This document shows, in pieces, positions 17,955 through 20,714 of a stretch of DNA of 64,000 bases. Positions within the stretch are counted from its first letter, which is position 1; each line of letters opens with the position of its first letter. Origin of the DNA: a phage. The DNA lies in assembly GCA_014685065.1 (NCBI GenBank), contig GCA_014685065.1_4092.2, one strand, 5' to 3'. A program made the translations under genes and the position numbers. The notes under the pieces were generated by a model. It searched no databases. It was not told the DNA's origin and saw only the letters and a program-made list of their open reading frames with translations.

Positions 17955-17990
17955 AAAGGGTTGACTTCGGTCAGCCCTTTTTGCTATAAT
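17955..17990 (+). terminator. bifunctional terminator/promoter module, long form
   Basis: AAAGGGTTGACTTCGGTCAGCCCTTTTTGCTATAAT; TTGACT 17961-17966, TATAAT 17985-17990. Confidence 0.7.
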
Positions 17991-18018
17991 TATTTCATCA
18001 AGACGAGAGGATGAATAC

Positions 18019-18534
18019 ATGACACGCATTAACTTAGTACACGTTAAAGAACTTGCTGACCAACATCTGATGGCTGAATATCGTGAACTCCCACGTGTAT
18101 TTGGTGCTGTACAAAAACACGTTCAAGCACGTAAGCGTGTACGTGATTTCAAAATTAACAGTACTTATCTGTTAGGTTCAGGTCATGTGACATTCTTTTA
18201 CGACAAGTTGCTGTACTTACAGAAGCGTCATATCGATATTGTTAACGAATGTTTGCGTCGTGGTATGAAGATTCAAAACACTGAAGTAAACGACATTAGC
18301 GGCTTCCCTGCTGAGTTTTGTAATGACTACGTACCAACGGAGTCAGAGATTAAAATGTCTCGTGATCGTTTGATTGAGAAGCTCCAGATGAAGCCTACGT
18401 GGTATAAGTTTACTGATGTTGAATGTCCACAGTACGTTAAAGATATGCAGAACGTAAGTAGTAAGAACGAATCTAGTACTGATATGTTCGACGAAATTGA
18501 AGAACAAATCAAAGATGAAATGAATAATTATTAA
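18019..18534 (+). CDS. denV: endonuclease V (pyrimidine-dimer DNA glycosylase), T4 DenV homologue
   Basis: N-terminus [39 protein letters not shown]...[10 protein letters not shown] is near-identical to T4 endonuclease V as recalled from memory. Confidence 0.85.
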
Positions 18535-18539
18535 AGGAA

Positions 18540-18556
18540 AGGGTTGACTTCGGTTA
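18540..18556 (+). repeat. truncated copy of the terminator module (left arm only)
   Basis: GGGTTGACTTCGGTTACAC lacks the complementary arm and T-run. Confidence 0.5.
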
Positions 18557-18572
18557 CACAAAGGAACATAAC

Positions 18573-18767
18573 ATGTTATTAGTATATTCAAAGCGTTTCT
18601 GGATTTCTTTTATTGTACTATCGCTAATCGGCTTCGGTTTGAGTATACTCTTTTCGTGGGATGAATTGGGTACATGGTATTATGAAGTCCCGTGGTACAT
18701 GAAGATAGCTCCTTGTTATGCGGCATTGTTCGTGTCATTCCTTATTGTTGTCTTCAGCGAGGATTAG
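18573..18767 (+). CDS. small membrane protein
   Basis: RBS AAGGAA; hydrophobic 64-aa ORF. Confidence 0.4.
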   Translation: MLLVYSKRFWISFIVLSLIGFGLSILFSWDELGTWYYEVPWYMKIAPCYAALFVSFLIVVFSED

Positions 18768-18873
18768 TTGATGTAGTATGTGCTACACCAAAGTATTTGG
18801 ATATTTTAGATATAAACATTGACACCTGTTCTATCTTTCTGTATTATGTACATCACCAAATGAGGAATACAAC

Positions 18874-19233
18874 ATGGCATCTTTAAGTGAAATCGCAGAA
18901 TACAACCCACTAACAATCTCAACAATTCAACGTACAAAAACTTTTTATTTCCGTCCTGCTGATGGATGGAAACGTGGAATGAATGGTGACTATCGAGTAC
19001 TGGAAGATTCACTAATCGAGCGTATCAACTCTGAACTACAGAAGTATGAAGGTGTTAAAGTTGTGCGTTCAACTTCTCGTTATTTTGAGTACTACATTGA
19101 GTCTTCAACTGTAAATGAAAACTCATCATTCTCGGTGGACAACACTGATATTCTTCGTAATGCTGTTGGTCTTTTATGCAGGATTGCAGAAGAAATTGGA
19201 TTAACTATCACCACAATGAGTGAGTTAGAATAA
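18874..19233 (+). CDS. hypothetical protein
   Basis: RBS GAGGAA before ATG. Confidence 0.5.
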   Translation: MASLSEIAEYNPLTISTIQRTKTFYFRPADGWKRGMNGDYRVLEDSLIERINSELQKYEGVKVVRSTSRYFEYYIESSTVNENSSFSVDNTDILRNAVGLLCRIAEEIGLTITTMSELE

Positions 19234-19236
19234 CAT

Positions 19237-19272
19237 AAAGGGTTGACTTCGGTCAGCCCTTTTTGCTATAAT
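19237..19272 (+). terminator. bifunctional terminator/promoter module, long form
   Basis: same 55-bp unit as at 17955 and 20651; TATAAT 19267-19272. Confidence 0.7.
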
Positions 19273-19298
19273 TATTTCATCAACACAAGAGGTAACAA

Positions 19299-19535
19299 AT
19301 GAAACTATCTTTTATACGATTAGCTGAATTCTTCGGTACTGATGTAATTACTTTACAACAAATTGCAGATAATACTTCATTAAGTACACAAGAAGTACTT
19401 GACTTAGATGTAATTCAGTGCGATAATACTTCCATCGATTTCAAAGAAGGTCTTGTCGAAAAAGATAAGATTAAAGCTAAGATTAATGGTGCTGGGCGGG
19501 TTCAGTACTGGAAAGGAGTATTAAGTAATGTTTGA
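19299..19535 (+). CDS. hypothetical protein
   Basis: RBS AGAGG before ATG. Confidence 0.5.
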   Translation: MKLSFIRLAEFFGTDVITLQQIADNTSLSTQEVLDLDVIQCDNTSIDFKEGLVEKDKIKAKINGAGRVQYWKGVLSNV

Positions 19536-20646
19536 ACAGTATTATTTAAATGAAGATGGTGAAAAAGTTTATTTTCATGAAGAACTTGGTATGCGTTTTG
19601 AATGGATGAAGCCTGAAGATATAAAAAGGGTTTCAAAAGGACTCACTGCTAAGGATCATGTTGATGACATAGAAGCAAAATTAAAAAACAAAGATATTGA
19701 CAATATTACTATTATTGGATTATCAGTTAAATCATCACGTGAGTTTGGTAAAAACGGAAATAGTAATAACAATTTACTGATTATGTATAATGGGGTATTG
19801 TATGATAATTATAAAATAACTGGTTTAAAAACAAAGCTTGAAAAAATAACAAACAATAAATTCAAGCCATCATTTACCTATACAGATGAAAATTATTATT
19901 ACTATGTAACCAAATTGGGTTCTCTTGAGGAAAGAGGATGCTATATATATGAAAATGAACATTTAGACAATGGGATAATGTCATATATTAAATTCACATA
20001 TTCCGATGGATTTACACAACCACGAAGAATAAATGATATAATTACAAAAACATCAATGAACGTTAGATATTTTATAACACCTGAAATGCGTGAAACAATT
20101 GCTAACACACGCTGTAATGAACTAGGATATACATTAAAAGAAGTTTACAAGAAATCAAATGGTCGTTATTATGTAAAATATATATGTGATAAAGGACACG
20201 AGTGTAATCAAGACTATTATGCGTTTACTAGTAAACAAGCACAAAAGTGTGGATGCTGTTCCCAATTAGAAACACACTCATTTGGTCATAATGATTGTAA
20301 AGAGTTTTTGAGAGGAATGTTTGTTACTGAAAGAGAGAAAACATTTCCTGATTTAAAAAATAAATCAAAACTTCCATATGATTTTTATATTCGTGATATT
20401 AATACGTTATTTGAATATGATGGTAGTAATCACTTTGAAGAACGTGAATCAGGATGGGGAAACGGACTTATGAGGAAAAAACACGATAAAATCAAAACAG
20501 AATACGCAATAAAAAATGGATATAACTTCATTCGTATTGCGTATTATGAAGACCATATTGGAGCATTGAAATCTTTCCTTAAACTCATTGAAGAGAATCC
20601 AGGAAAGCAAATCGTGCAGATCTATGGTGAAGTACAAATTATCTAA
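19528..20646 (+). CDS. putative nuclease with C-terminal Vsr/DUF559-like domain
   Basis: C-terminal LPYDFYIRD...LFEYDGSNHF...HDKIKTEYAIKNGYNFIRI recalled as Vsr-like; Cys cluster CDKGHEC..CGCC upstream. Confidence 0.45.
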   Translation: MFEQYYLNEDGEKVYFHEELGMRFEWMKPEDIKRVSKGLTAKDHVDDIEAKLKNKDIDNITIIGLSVKSSREFGKNGNSNNNLLIMYNGVLYDNYKITGLKTKLEKITNNKFKPSFTYTDENYYYYVTKLGSLEERGCYIYENEHLDNGIMSYIKFTYSDGFTQPRRINDIITKTSMNVRYFITPEMRETIANTRCNELGYTLKEVYKKSNGRYYVKYICDKGHECNQDYYAFTSKQAQKCGCCSQLETHSFGHNDCKEFLRGMFVTEREKTFPDLKNKSKLPYDFYIRDINTLFEYDGSNHFEERESGWGNGLMRKKHDKIKTEYAIKNGYNFIRIAYYEDHIGALKSFLKLIEENPGKQIVQIYGEVQII

Positions 20647-20650
20647 AACA

Positions 20651-20686
20651 AAAGGGTTGACTTCGGTCAGCCCTTTTTGCTATAAT
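20651..20686 (+). terminator. bifunctional terminator/promoter module, long form
   Basis: hairpin 20651-20676, TATAAT 20681-20686. Confidence 0.7.
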
Positions 20687-20714
20687 CATTTCATCAACTG
20701 AAGAGGGTAAAGAA

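What the first reader, a model, noticed from the sequence alone, without database searches (positions are those of the whole stretch)
17955..20704. denV and a nuclease gene pair bracketed by identical 55-bp modules
Long-form modules at 17955, 19237 and 20651 are near-identical, including downstream ATTTCATCAA...AGAGG, and a truncated copy sits just after denV at 18540. The arrangement module-denV-truncated module and module-two genes-module looks like two cassettes inserted by recombination between module copies. denV would then be a mobile accessory gene here.
Basis: inference. Interest (0 to 1): 0.5.

Follow-up and report, generated by a model that had tools for sequence, protein, structure and literature searches.

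The report
Terminator-promoter repeats shuffling phage gene cassettes
Three near-identical ~56-bp repeats in a giant E. coli phage are combined "stop-then-start" transcription signals that also mark where small gene cassettes were gained or lost between relatives, which is a known kind of element (PeSL) seen here outside the T4-like phages, while the UV-repair gene denV between them is a fixed resident and not a mobile gene.

Summary
Full modules at 17955, 19237 and 20651 share 36-47 nt exactly (91-96% over 56 nt), and a 17-nt half copy follows the denV stop at 18538. The window is an Asteriusvirus jumbo coliphage, 99% identical to vB_EcoM_G17. Each module is a strong hairpin plus T-run (intrinsic terminator) whose 5' arm holds the -35 TTGACT of an extended -10 promoter, followed by a shared leader, SD and ATG. 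This is the anatomy of the PeSL (promoter-early stem-loop) cassettes described in T4-like phages. A KVP40-group Vibrio phage carries an almost identical copy.

Twelve relatives give at least ten architectures of this locus. UE-S1 lacks 19304-20643 exactly module-to-module. EC.P1 and ph0011 have a full module where the window has the half copy, joined directly to g223. ph0011 has a four-gene cassette between two modules upstream of denV. JP4 has a second half-module with an inserted ORF.

denV itself was present in every relative I examined, including the genus Alcyoneusvirus, so it is not accessory. The "nuclease pair" is not one unit: the 372-aa ORF is a sporadic free-standing homing endonuclease gene nested behind conserved g220. 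Many other indels in the window are not at modules. Verdict: a new member of a known kind, of modest interest.

The parts
17950..18018 (+). Module 1 (full), between g216 and denV. Hairpin about 17953-17982 (AAAAGGGTTGAC-TTCG-GTCAGCCCTTTT) with T-run; -35 TTGACT 17961-17966 lies inside the 5' arm and loop; 18-nt spacer; TGc-TATAAT 17985-17990; leader ATTTCATCAA 17992-18001; SD GAGAGGA; ATG 18019.
   Evidence: 11/12 promoter match with TG; -21 kcal/mol, z -4.5. G17 annotates a terminator at the orthologous site.
18019..18534 (+). denV, pyrimidine-dimer DNA glycosylase, long 171-aa form. The C-terminal ~28 aa (from about 18423) are missing or different in short-form relatives.
   Evidence: Pfam PF03013, 55.8 bits against a cut-off of 23. 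62-67% aa identity to T-even denV. Recurrent breakpoint at 18422-18435 in PBECO4, SD-15_S21, K64-1 and CMSTMSU; A4 also has the short form.
18535..18554 (+). Half module (degraded copy). The 5' arm, -35 and loop are retained; the 3' arm, T-run and -10 are replaced by unrelated sequence leading into g218. Likely a recombination scar, so there is no terminator between denV and g218.
   Evidence: It does not fold (-1.7 kcal/mol, z +0.96). EC.P1 and ph0011 have a complete module at this exact position.
18573..18767 (+). g218, a 64-aa ORF of unknown function (hydrophobic by sequence). Variable: absent from EC.P1, ph0011, PBECO4, SD-15_S21 and A4.
18819..18847 (+). Ordinary promoter-like site (TTGACA-17-TATTAT) in front of g219, with no hairpin.
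   Evidence: Conserved in PBECO4 directly after the short denV.
18874..19233 (+). g219, 119-aa protein of unknown function (phrog_32140). Absent from EC.P1, ph0011 and A4.
19232..19298 (+). Module 2 (full), between g219 and g220. -35 19243-19248, -10 19267-19272, ATG 19299.
   Evidence: (-18.9 kcal/mol, z -4.7). In JP4 a degraded half copy plus a 612-nt ORF is inserted here, with the break at about window 19250, in the loop.
19299..19535 (+). g220, 78-aa protein of unknown function (phrog_34150). Not a recognisable nuclease. Present in most relatives.
19528..20646 (+). 372-aa free-standing homing-endonuclease-like gene. Its ATG overlaps the g220 stop and its own stop lies just 5' of module 3. 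Sporadic among relatives.
   Evidence: PHROG 559/9084/7140, E 7e-24 to 2e-10. No Pfam, NCBIfam or PDB sequence hit. At >=99% identity only in G17, Sharanji and JP4. Absent exactly in SD-15_S21, replaced by phrog_681 endonuclease gp221 plus gp222 in 121Q.
20646..20714 (+). Module 3 (full), in front of g223. -35 20657-20662, -10 20681-20686, ATG 20715.
   Evidence: (-19.1 kcal/mol, z -3.6). It is the right-hand junction of the differences seen in UE-S1, EC.P1, SD-15_S21, 121Q, UB and PBECO4.
20715..21485 (+). g223, P-loop/AAA-type ATPase-like protein (phrog_1250). The conserved downstream anchor of the locus; a divergent allele begins right after the module in UE-S1 (73% nt) and ph0011 (58% aa).
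7342..7400 (+). Diverged module copy (AAAGGTTGACTTCGGTCAGCCTTTTTT..TATAAT).
10584..10642 (+). Diverged module copy (loop TAAG, -10 TATCAT).
10767..10825 (+). Diverged module copy. An EC.P1 indel boundary lies 57-80 nt away.
12376..12434 (+). Diverged copy: hairpin and T-run but no clear -10, so terminator-only in appearance.
13454..13512 (+). Diverged module copy (-10 TATGAT).
50302..50360 (+). Diverged module copy (-10 TATTAT).
54341..54399 (+). Subfamily copy GGGATTGACTCCGGTCAGTCCC..TATTAT, in which the stem change G-C to A-T is compensated.
57645..57703 (+). Subfamily copy (as at 54341).
59906..59964 (+). Subfamily copy (as at 54341).

Best explanation
The modules are composite terminator/promoter cassettes of the PeSL type, in the + strand block of small genes (presumably the early genes) of an Asteriusvirus jumbo phage.

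How each module reads (inferred from sequence). On RNA arriving from upstream, the hairpin AAAGGGTTGAC-TTCG-GTCAGCCCTTTTT plus U-run ends the upstream transcript. On DNA, the same 5' arm and loop supply the -35 TTGACT of a near-consensus host sigma-70 promoter (18-nt spacer, TGcTATAAT). That promoter restarts transcription about 7 nt after the -10, through a shared leader (ATTTCATCAA) and SD into the next gene. Each module-plus-gene(s) unit is therefore transcriptionally self-contained.

Why they matter for genome change. Three copies identical over 36-47 nt lie in direct orientation within 2.7 kb, so they are the longest homology patches available to the phage's recombination and replication machinery. 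Unequal exchange, excision and re-insertion, or template switching at them adds, removes or swaps the units between them without disturbing the neighbours. The comparative outcomes are observed; the molecular route is inferred.

Reading of this locus. denV is a fixed resident that happens to sit between active junctions. The half module at 18538 is the scar of an exchange whose crossover fell in the hairpin loop. It leaves denV, g218 and g219 as one transcription unit that ends at module 2. A second, independent process is layered on top: free-standing homing endonuclease genes (the 372-aa ORF here; HNH, gp221 and others in relatives) insert between a gene's stop codon and the next module's hairpin.
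For: Anatomy:
- Hairpins of -19 to -21 kcal/mol, z -3.6 to -4.7 against shuffles.
- 11/12 promoter match with an extended -10 at all three copies.
- G17 and other records annotate terminators or -35/-10 signals at orthologous or matching sites.
- 13 copies, all co-oriented with the genes.
- The stem is kept by compensatory changes at three outer pairs. 94.6% of cells are paired, against 23-62% when the partner is slid. The inner pairs TTGAC/GTCAG, which include most of the -35, are fixed apart from one-sided variants in two copies.
- In K64-1 the module core is 33/33 identical while the adjacent denV is 78% identical.

Junctions:
- UE-S1 has g219-module-g223, lacking 19304-20643.
- EC.P1 and ph0011 have denV-full module-g223 where the window has the half copy.
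- ph0011 has module-[4 genes including a Dam-type methyltransferase]-module-denV.
- JP4 has g219-degraded half module-612-nt ORF-full module.
- Nucleotide identity drops across the module (94% to 73% in UE-S1, 96% to 88% in EC.P1)..
- A4 lost g216 between two 12-nt AATAAAGAAAAG repeats, which shows that short-repeat recombination operates in this locus.

Precedent: PeSLs are defined by this anatomy and behaviour, including 'degraded 1/2 PeSLs' near indels and a crossover mapped to the hairpin loop in RB49 (PMC2839356, PMC4122927). A KVP40-group phage, VH7D, has AAAAGGGTTGACTGCGGTCAGCCCTTTT..TATTAT.
Against: - No transcript or recombination data exist here. Terminator and promoter activity and any mini-circles are inferred.
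- In an unbiased census of window 1-30000 against 121Q, PBECO4 and EC.P1, only the cluster of identical copies shows breakpoints exactly at modules. Seven other + strand events and three - strand events do not touch a module, and the five diverged copies at 7-13.5 kb are not at breakpoints.
- By my own rough tally, about 6 of 13 + strand events touch a module, against roughly 25% expected when 8 of about 60 gene ends carry one. That enrichment is only suggestive.
- Three of the module-edge events are homing-endonuclease gene insertions or replacements that need no module-module recombination.
- Selection alone would favour survivors whose breakpoints respect transcription-unit borders.
- The direction of each event (gain or loss) is not resolved.
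Confidence: 0.75

Rival explanations
1. The modules are only regulatory punctuation (terminator plus promoter). Indels arise by illegitimate or microhomology events anywhere, and selection keeps those that fall at transcription-unit borders, so the coincidence with modules is a survivorship effect and not a recombination role.
For: Most indel boundaries in window 1-30000 are not at modules, and the count-based enrichment is weak. A4's g216 deletion used a 12-nt microhomology, not the module itself. Breaks at 18422/18423 and 17012/17306 are unrelated to modules.
Against: In UE-S1, EC.P1 and ph0011 both flanks join inside one intact module with no extra or missing bases, which is the exact product expected from exchange between two copies. 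Two independent half copies break at about the same place, in or next to the hairpin loop (window 18554; JP4 at about 19250). The module-exact events are confined to the copies that are identical to each other, as homology dependence predicts.
Confidence: 0.15
2. Homing endonucleases drive the variation. The 372-aa ORF, gp221, the HNH genes and their paralogues cut near these sites, and repair copies them and neighbouring DNA between co-infecting phages. The modules are then incidental, or are part of the cleavage targets.
For: At least five different endonuclease-like genes occupy just two slots, each immediately 5' of a module hairpin. After g216: the HNH in JP4/UB/EC.P1/ph0011 and another endonuclease-like gene in ECO103 4-12-1. 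After g220: the 372-aa ORF, 121Q gp221 and a PBECO4 variant; A4 has an uncharacterised 1698-nt ORF in that slot. SD-15_S21 lacks the 372-aa ORF exactly. The ORF is sporadic among genomes.
Against: This does not explain the events that involve no endonuclease gene: the JP4 612-nt ORF insertion and ph0011's 4-gene cassette between two modules, which carries no annotated endonuclease. It also does not explain the intact chimeric modules left at the junctions in UE-S1, EC.P1 and ph0011. No cleavage site is known. I regard this as a real second process layered on the first, not a replacement for it.
Confidence: 0.08
3. The module is itself a small mobile element (MITE/REP-like), or the recombination site of a site-specific, integron-like system.
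For: It is a short palindromic repeat in many copies, found also in other phage genera and families. Cassette-like units lie between copies.
Against: All 13 copies are co-oriented with transcription, none is on the - strand, and each full copy sits at a fixed distance from an SD and ATG. There are no target-site duplications or terminal inverted repeats beyond the hairpin. Cassettes carry their own promoter, unlike integron cassettes. No recombinase-like domain appeared among the neighbouring ORFs scanned; the whole genome was not scanned.
Confidence: 0.02

Closest known systems
PeSLs (promoter-early stem-loops) of T4-like phages: RB49/phi1, PST/T4, nt-1/KVP40 (Arbiol et al. 2010, PMC2839356; Comeau et al. 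2014, PMC4122927)
   Same: A composite of stem-loop terminator, sigma-70-like promoter, SD and ATG. Many conserved copies among small variable ORFs. Copies lie at insertion, deletion and replacement junctions between close relatives, with degraded half copies next to indels and a crossover in the hairpin loop. The stem form A3-4G3-loop-C3T3-4 and the promoter TTGYVH-N17-TAWWAT reported for nt-1/KVP40 fit this module, except that the spacer here is 18 nt. VH7D (genus Schizotequatrovirus) has a copy about 81% identical over 54 nt.
   Different: The host genome is an Asteriusvirus jumbo phage (350-370 kb, 121Q/PBECO4/Rak2 group), not a member of Straboviridae. No paper in the searched library links PeSLs to this group. 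Here the -35 hexamer is physically inside the terminator hairpin, whereas the figure legend for PST places the stem-loop just upstream of the promoter. Mini-circles and terminator activity were shown experimentally for RB49/phi1 and are untested here.
Free-standing homing endonuclease genes of T4-like phages (seg/mob genes; cited in PMC4122927 as a parallel source of plasticity)
   Same: The 372-aa ORF and its slot-mates sit in intergenic positions, overlap or abut the upstream gene, are sporadic among near-identical genomes, and are exchanged for unrelated endonuclease genes at the same site.
   Different: The catalytic family is unresolved: PHROG matches only, with one homologue annotated 'EDxHD' in phage Muenster and no Pfam, NCBIfam or PDB sequence match. 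No cleavage site or homing has been demonstrated. These genes account for only part of the variation at the locus.
T4 endonuclease V (DenV, Pfam PF03013 Pyr_excise)
   Same: The window's denV passes the Pfam threshold and is 62-67% identical to T-even DenV over residues 1-131.
   Different: It carries a C-terminal extension of about 28 aa that short-form relatives lack. T-even denV genes are preceded by an ordinary T4 early promoter, not this module.
Integron attC gene cassettes
   Same: Short imperfect palindromes separate small, exchangeable gene units.
   Different: Integron cassettes are promoterless and are moved by an adjacent IntI integrase. Here every unit has its own promoter, the junctions look like homologous exchange, and no integrase was seen among the neighbours.

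Membership tests
PeSL (composite promoter-terminator cassette) | A stable stem-loop able to act as an intrinsic terminator for the upstream unit | tested here: met
   -19 to -21 kcal/mol, z -3.6 to -4.7, followed by T5. Compensatory changes keep the stem across 17 copies. G17 annotates terminators at these sites. In silico only.
PeSL (composite promoter-terminator cassette) | A sigma-70-like (early) promoter joined to the stem-loop | tested here: met
   TTGACT-18-TATAAT with TG, 11/12 matches, at 17961-17990, 19243-19272 and 20657-20686. The -35 overlaps the hairpin.
PeSL (composite promoter-terminator cassette) | A Shine-Dalgarno sequence and the start codon of the downstream gene at the 3' end of the element | tested here: met
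   AGAGG/GAGG lies 6-9 nt before the ATG at 18019, 19299 and 20715.
PeSL (composite promoter-terminator cassette) | Multiple conserved copies, co-oriented with transcription, among small variable ORFs (hyperplastic regions) | tested here: met
   13 copies in 64 kb, all + strand and none on the - strand, in blocks of small mostly hypothetical ORFs. 5-7 matching places per Asteriusvirus genome with a strict 55-nt query.
PeSL (composite promoter-terminator cassette) | Copies lie at insertion, deletion or replacement junctions between closely related phages | tested here: met
   UE-S1, EC.P1, ph0011 and JP4 junctions fall inside modules; 121Q, UB, PBECO4 and SD-15_S21 have their right junction at module 3.
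PeSL (composite promoter-terminator cassette) | Breakpoints are enriched at the elements relative to other intergenic sites | tested here: inconclusive
   By my tally, about 6 of 13 + strand events touch a module, against about 25% expected (8 of about 60 gene ends carry one). All exact hits are in the cluster of identical copies and none at the five diverged copies.
PeSL (composite promoter-terminator cassette) | Degraded half elements next to indels | tested here: met
   Window 18538-18554; JP4 L003 about 4556-4570.
PeSL (composite promoter-terminator cassette) | Recombination between neighbouring copies yields deletions and mini-circles during infection | not testable with these tools
   This needs inverse PCR or long-read sequencing of lysates. 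The separate 1,994-bp contigs of ECO103 4-12-1 are bounded by paralogous endonuclease genes, not modules, so they are not evidence.
PeSL (composite promoter-terminator cassette) | Promoter and terminator activity in vivo | not testable with these tools
   No transcriptome for this phage group was available to me.
Free-standing homing endonuclease gene (for 19528-20646) | A nuclease domain of a homing-endonuclease family | tested here: inconclusive
   PHROG 559/9084/7140 at E 7e-24 to 2e-10. No Pfam, NCBIfam or PDB sequence match. The catalytic family is not assigned.
Free-standing homing endonuclease gene (for 19528-20646) | Sporadic, precise presence or absence among near-identical genomes, with other endonuclease genes in the same slot | tested here: met
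   At >=99% identity only in G17, Sharanji and JP4. SD-15_S21 lacks exactly 19529-20646. 121Q/UB have gp221 (phrog_681) there.
Pyrimidine-dimer DNA glycosylase (DenV, PF03013) (for 18019-18534) | Match to the family profile above the curated cut-off | tested here: met
   55.8 bits against a cut-off of 23; residues 1-86 match profile positions 1-76 of 81.
Integron cassette / attC | Promoterless cassettes bounded by attC sites, with an adjacent IntI integrase | tested here: not met
   Each unit has its own near-consensus promoter. No integrase domain among the ORFs scanned. The rest of the genome was not scanned.
MITE/REP-type mobile repeat | Terminal inverted repeats with target-site duplications, inserted in either orientation | tested here: not met
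   All copies are on one strand at a fixed register to SD and ATG. There are no flanking duplications apart from the fortuitous 12-nt AATAAAGAAAAG repeat.

The most novel reading that the evidence does not exclude
The same 35-50-nt terminator/promoter linker (AAAGGGTTGAC-loop-GTCAGCCCTTTT..TATAAT) is shared at 80-100% identity by Rak2/121Q-type jumbo phages of several genera, KVP40-type Straboviridae, Aeromonas T4-likes and other large virulent phages. It could therefore act as a cross-family adaptor: a common patch of homology, self-contained for expression, that lets gene cassettes move between unrelated large phages co-infecting the same cell. The alternative is that it is a convergent optimum for a compact terminator-promoter.
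Probability: 0.12. Interest if true: 0.6.

Novelty: new member of a known kind. Interest (0 to 1): 0.3.

Why it matters
Jumbo phages of the 121Q/Rak2 group carry hundreds of small genes of unknown function whose content differs between near-identical isolates. If PeSL-type linkers operate here, that would extend the mechanism beyond the T4-like phages in which it was defined. It would also give a concrete rule for where accessory cassettes go in and out of these genomes, for example the Dam-type methyltransferase cassette in ph0011. Practically, it warns annotators that these sites are both terminators and promoters. It also points to natural 'landing pads' for engineering therapeutic jumbo phages. 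It does not change the understanding of denV, which is an ordinary, fixed repair gene in this lineage.

Tried and rejected
- Separate 1,994-bp records of phages ECO103 4-12-1 and EC22.5-2 looked like possible module-bounded mini-circles. Their ends lie in paralogous homing-endonuclease genes, not modules, so they are an assembly break at repeats.
- Idea that denV came from T-even phages together with the module. The closest T-even denV genes (Kosakonia phage 305, Shigella SHFML-11) have a T4-type GTTTAC early promoter upstream and no such hairpin.
- Rfam at gathering thresholds on 16000-22000 gave nothing.
- Pfam, NCBIfam and PDB sequence searches for the 372-aa ORF gave nothing; only PHROGs gave a family.
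- Count-based test of breakpoint enrichment at modules over window 1-30000 was only suggestive. My automatic chaining of BLAST hits also mis-joined one PBECO4 segment (19625|21887) because of the g224-g228 paralogues, so I relied on the locus-level maps for the focal region.
- Integron-like and MITE-like readings were rejected on orientation, own promoters and lack of a recombinase or target-site duplications.
- CMSTMSU (an UNVERIFIED record with many small indels) was not used for junction calls.
- I did not establish whether more distant Rak2-like genera (CBB, GAP32, Munch, fHe-Yen9) have denV.

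
Full report
**What the window is**

The 5-kb stretch around the finding is 99.0% identical over its full length to Escherichia phages vB_EcoM_G17 and Sharanji. It matches about 45 other Escherichia, Salmonella and Klebsiella jumbo-phage records (genomes mostly 320-385 kb) in patches. G17 and 121Q are classified in the genus Asteriusvirus. The finding lies in a long + strand block of small, mostly hypothetical genes downstream of a phage sigma-factor gene.

**Checking the observation**

- The 35-mer AAGGGTTGACTTCGGTCAGCCCTTTTTGCTATAAT occurs exactly at 17956, 19238 and 20652. No match is expected by chance.
- Over 56 nt from 17955/19237/20651 the copies are 96.4%, 91.1% and 94.6% identical, with exact runs of 47, 37 and 36 nt. 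All contain ATTTCATCAA and end in AGAGG.
- The truncated copy after the denV stop is real. It matches 17 nt (18538-18554) and diverges after TTCGGT.
A relaxed core finds 13 copies in the window, all on the + strand: 7352, 10594, 10777, 12386, 13464, 17959, 18542, 19241, 20655, 50312, 54351, 57655 and 59916.

**Anatomy of a module**

- Each full copy folds into a hairpin AAAGGGTTGAC-TTCG-GTCAGCCCTTT followed by a T-run, at -19 to -21 kcal/mol and z -3.6 to -4.7 against shuffles. The half copy does not fold.
- The -35 hexamer TTGACT lies inside the 5' arm and loop. After an 18-nt spacer comes TGc-TATAAT, an 11/12 match with an extended -10.
- Then come a shared leader, an SD and the ATG of denV, g220 or g223.
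- G17's depositors annotated terminators at the three orthologous sites.
- In an alignment of 17 copies from the window, K64-1, CMSTMSU and the Vibrio phage VH7D, 94.6% of stem cells pair, against 23-62% when the partner is slid. Three outer stem positions show compensatory changes (for example GGG/CCC to GGA/TCC in the 54-60 kb subfamily). The inner pairs, which include most of the -35, are fixed apart from one-sided variants in two copies. The copies are related to each other, so this is supportive and not proof.
- Rfam has no family here.

**The genes**

- 18019-18534 is a pyrimidine-dimer glycosylase (PF03013, 55.8 bits against a cut-off of 23). It is 62-67% identical to T-even DenV.
- g218, g219 and g220 have no known function.
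- The 372-aa ORF matches homing-endonuclease PHROGs (E down to 7e-24) but nothing in Pfam, NCBIfam or PDB sequences. A homologue in phage Muenster is annotated 'homing endonuclease EDxHD'.
- g223 is a P-loop ATPase-like protein.

I read the locus in twelve relatives. M is a full module, m a half module, L and S the long and short forms of denV.

| Phage(s) | Architecture |
|---|---|
| window / G17 / Sharanji | 216-M-denV(L)-m-218-219-M-220-HE372-M-223 |
| 121Q | ...M-220-gp221 (another endonuclease, phrog_681)-gp222-M-223 |
| UB | as 121Q (a different short ORF in place of gp222), plus an HNH gene before the first M |
| JP4 | 216-HNH-M-denV(L)-m-218-219-m'-ORF(612 nt)-M-220-HE372-M-223 |
| UE-S1 | ...219-M-223 |
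| EC.P1 | 216-HNH-M-denV(L)-M-223 |
| ph0011 | 216-HNH-M-[four genes incl. a Dam-type methyltransferase]-M-denV(L)-M-223 |
| PBECO4 | 216-M-denV(S)-219-M-220-HE'-ORF-M-223 |
| SD-15_S21 | M-denV(S)::219 fusion-M-220-M-223 |
| A4 | 215-M-denV(S)-ORF-M-220-ORF-M-223 |
| K64-1 (Alcyoneusvirus) | M-denV(S)-about a dozen other small ORFs-223 |

At base level:

- UE-S1, EC.P1 and ph0011 join the left flank of one module to the right flank of another through a single intact module. This is the product expected of exchange between copies.
- EC.P1 and ph0011 have a complete module exactly where the window has the half copy.
- Identity drops across these junctions: 94% to 73% in UE-S1 and 96% to 88% in EC.P1.

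The cassette idea holds for the material between modules. denV itself does not vary in presence. It is in every relative examined, always preceded by a module. In K64-1 it lies between homologues of g212/g216 and g223, with a 33/33-identical module core next to a gene only 78% identical. The 45 records with denV at >=80% identity equal in number the Escherichia, Salmonella and Klebsiella records that matched the locus; I did not cross-match the two lists.

What does vary is denV's 3' end (short 143-147 aa form against long 171 aa form, with a recurrent break at 18422-18435) and its neighbours.

The '19299-20646 pair' is composite. g220 is widespread. The 372-aa ORF is near-identical in only three genomes, is absent exactly (19529-20646) from SD-15_S21, and is replaced by other endonuclease genes in 121Q, UB and PBECO4. 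It behaves as a free-standing homing endonuclease gene inserted between the g220 stop and the hairpin of module 3. An HNH gene sits in the equivalent position before module 1 in JP4, UB, EC.P1 and ph0011.

**How general is the module-breakpoint link?**

To avoid judging only the region chosen for its repeats, I chained BLAST matches of window 1-30000 to 121Q, PBECO4 and EC.P1.

- Breakpoints exactly at modules occur only in the 17.9-20.7 kb cluster of identical copies.
- Events at 1319, 6523, 8940, 12817, 17012 and 18422, and three in the - strand RCC1-like paralogue block, are not at modules.
- One event (10708-10900) lies 57-80 nt from a module.
- About 8 of 60 + strand gene ends carry a module.
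- Combining these with the smaller loci, my tally is roughly 6 of 13 + strand events touching a module, against about 25% expected. That is only suggestive.

The stronger evidence is qualitative. The junctions are intact and chimeric, two independent half copies break at the loop, and the effect is restricted to mutually identical copies. A4's loss of g216 between two 12-nt AATAAAGAAAAG repeats (17697-17708 and 17947-17958) shows that short-repeat recombination is active in this locus. The modules are simply its longest substrates.

**Comparison with what is known**

The anatomy and behaviour match PeSLs, described in RB49/phi1 and extended to PST/T4 and nt-1/KVP40. The shared features are:

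- stem-loop terminator plus sigma-70-like promoter plus SD and ATG;
- concentration among variable ORFs;
- positions at indels;
- 'degraded 1/2 PeSLs';
- mini-circles, with a crossover mapped to the loop in RB49 (PMC2839356, PMC4122927).

The nt-1/KVP40 consensus (A3-4G3-loop-C3T3-4; TTGYVH-N17-TAWWAT) fits this module apart from its 18-nt spacer. The KVP40-group phage VH7D has AAAAGGGTTGACTGCGGTCAGCCCTTTTGTGTATTAT upstream of a gene.

The 55-nt query also hits CBB, GAP32, Munch, fHe-Yen9, Aeromonas T4-likes and others. I found no paper in the searchable library that connects PeSLs with the 121Q/PBECO4/Rak2 group. Papers on related jumbo phages list promoters and terminators separately. Absence from that library is not proof that it is unpublished.

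**Leads that failed**

- The 1,994-bp contigs of two assemblies are bounded by paralogous endonuclease genes, not modules.
- T-even denV genes have no such module upstream, so nothing suggests denV arrived with it.

**Verdict**

These are PeSL-type terminator/promoter linkers in a jumbo phage. They mark real cassette junctions, overlaid by homing-endonuclease traffic, while denV is a fixed gene. This is a new member of a known kind, of modest interest. Terminator and promoter function and the recombination route remain inferred.

Noticed in passing
window 49800-60600: A second, unrelated repeated intergenic family with at least 11 copies on the + strand. Each has promoter-like TTGACAA or ACTTGCAA ...AGTACTGTATAAT, then about 12 nt later a G/C hairpin (GGGGAGAATAGTTCTCCCC) that would lie in the 5' UTR, then an SD and ATG. 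It is interleaved with the module subfamily at 54343, 57647 and 59908.
   Followed up: no
window 17697-17708 and 17947-17958; L021 (phage A4) about 1395-1430: Phage A4 lacks g216 through a 250-bp deletion between two 12-nt direct repeats AATAAAGAAAAG. One repeat is in the first codons of g216 and the other abuts module 1.
   Followed up: yes
L020 (phage ph0011) 1900-5360: A four-gene cassette, including a putative DNA N6-adenine methyltransferase, lies between two full modules upstream of denV. It could be an anti-restriction accessory unit carried by the module system.
   Followed up: partly
window 18423-18534: denV exists in two forms. The long form (171 aa, here) has an acidic C-terminal tail. 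Short forms (143-147 aa) in PBECO4, A4, SD-15_S21 and K64-1 diverge at 18422/18423. In SD-15_S21 a deletion of 18424-18857 fuses denV to g219 in one 780-nt ORF.
   Followed up: partly
L015-L017 (phage ECO103 4-12-1; the same pattern appears in EC22.5-2): The denV-g219-g220 segment was deposited as a separate 1,994-bp contig. Its ends, and the ends of the 352-kb main contig, lie in paralogous homing-endonuclease genes that flank the segment, so this is an assembly break at repeated endonuclease genes.
   Followed up: yes
window 21551-23226: A tandem array of five paralogous genes of about 105-116 aa (g224-g228), hydrophobic by sequence, with a 130-nt repeat at 75% identity (21550/21891). Copy number and alleles differ between relatives, and the paralogy confused automatic chaining.
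   Followed up: no
window 25280-29020 (- strand): A block of RCC1-like ('DNA condensation') paralogues on the - strand shows three indel or replacement events against 121Q and PBECO4, with no modules nearby.
   Followed up: no
window 17013-17305: g214 (83 aa, hydrophobic by sequence) is absent from JP4, PBECO4, UB and SD-15_S21, with breakpoints at 17012/17306 that are not at a module.
   Followed up: partly
window 20715-21485 versus L005 (UE-S1) and L020 (ph0011): g223 has a strongly divergent allele (73% nt in UE-S1, 58% aa in ph0011) that starts immediately after the module, while the upstream genes are 91-98% identical. This is a mosaic boundary at the module.
   Followed up: partly
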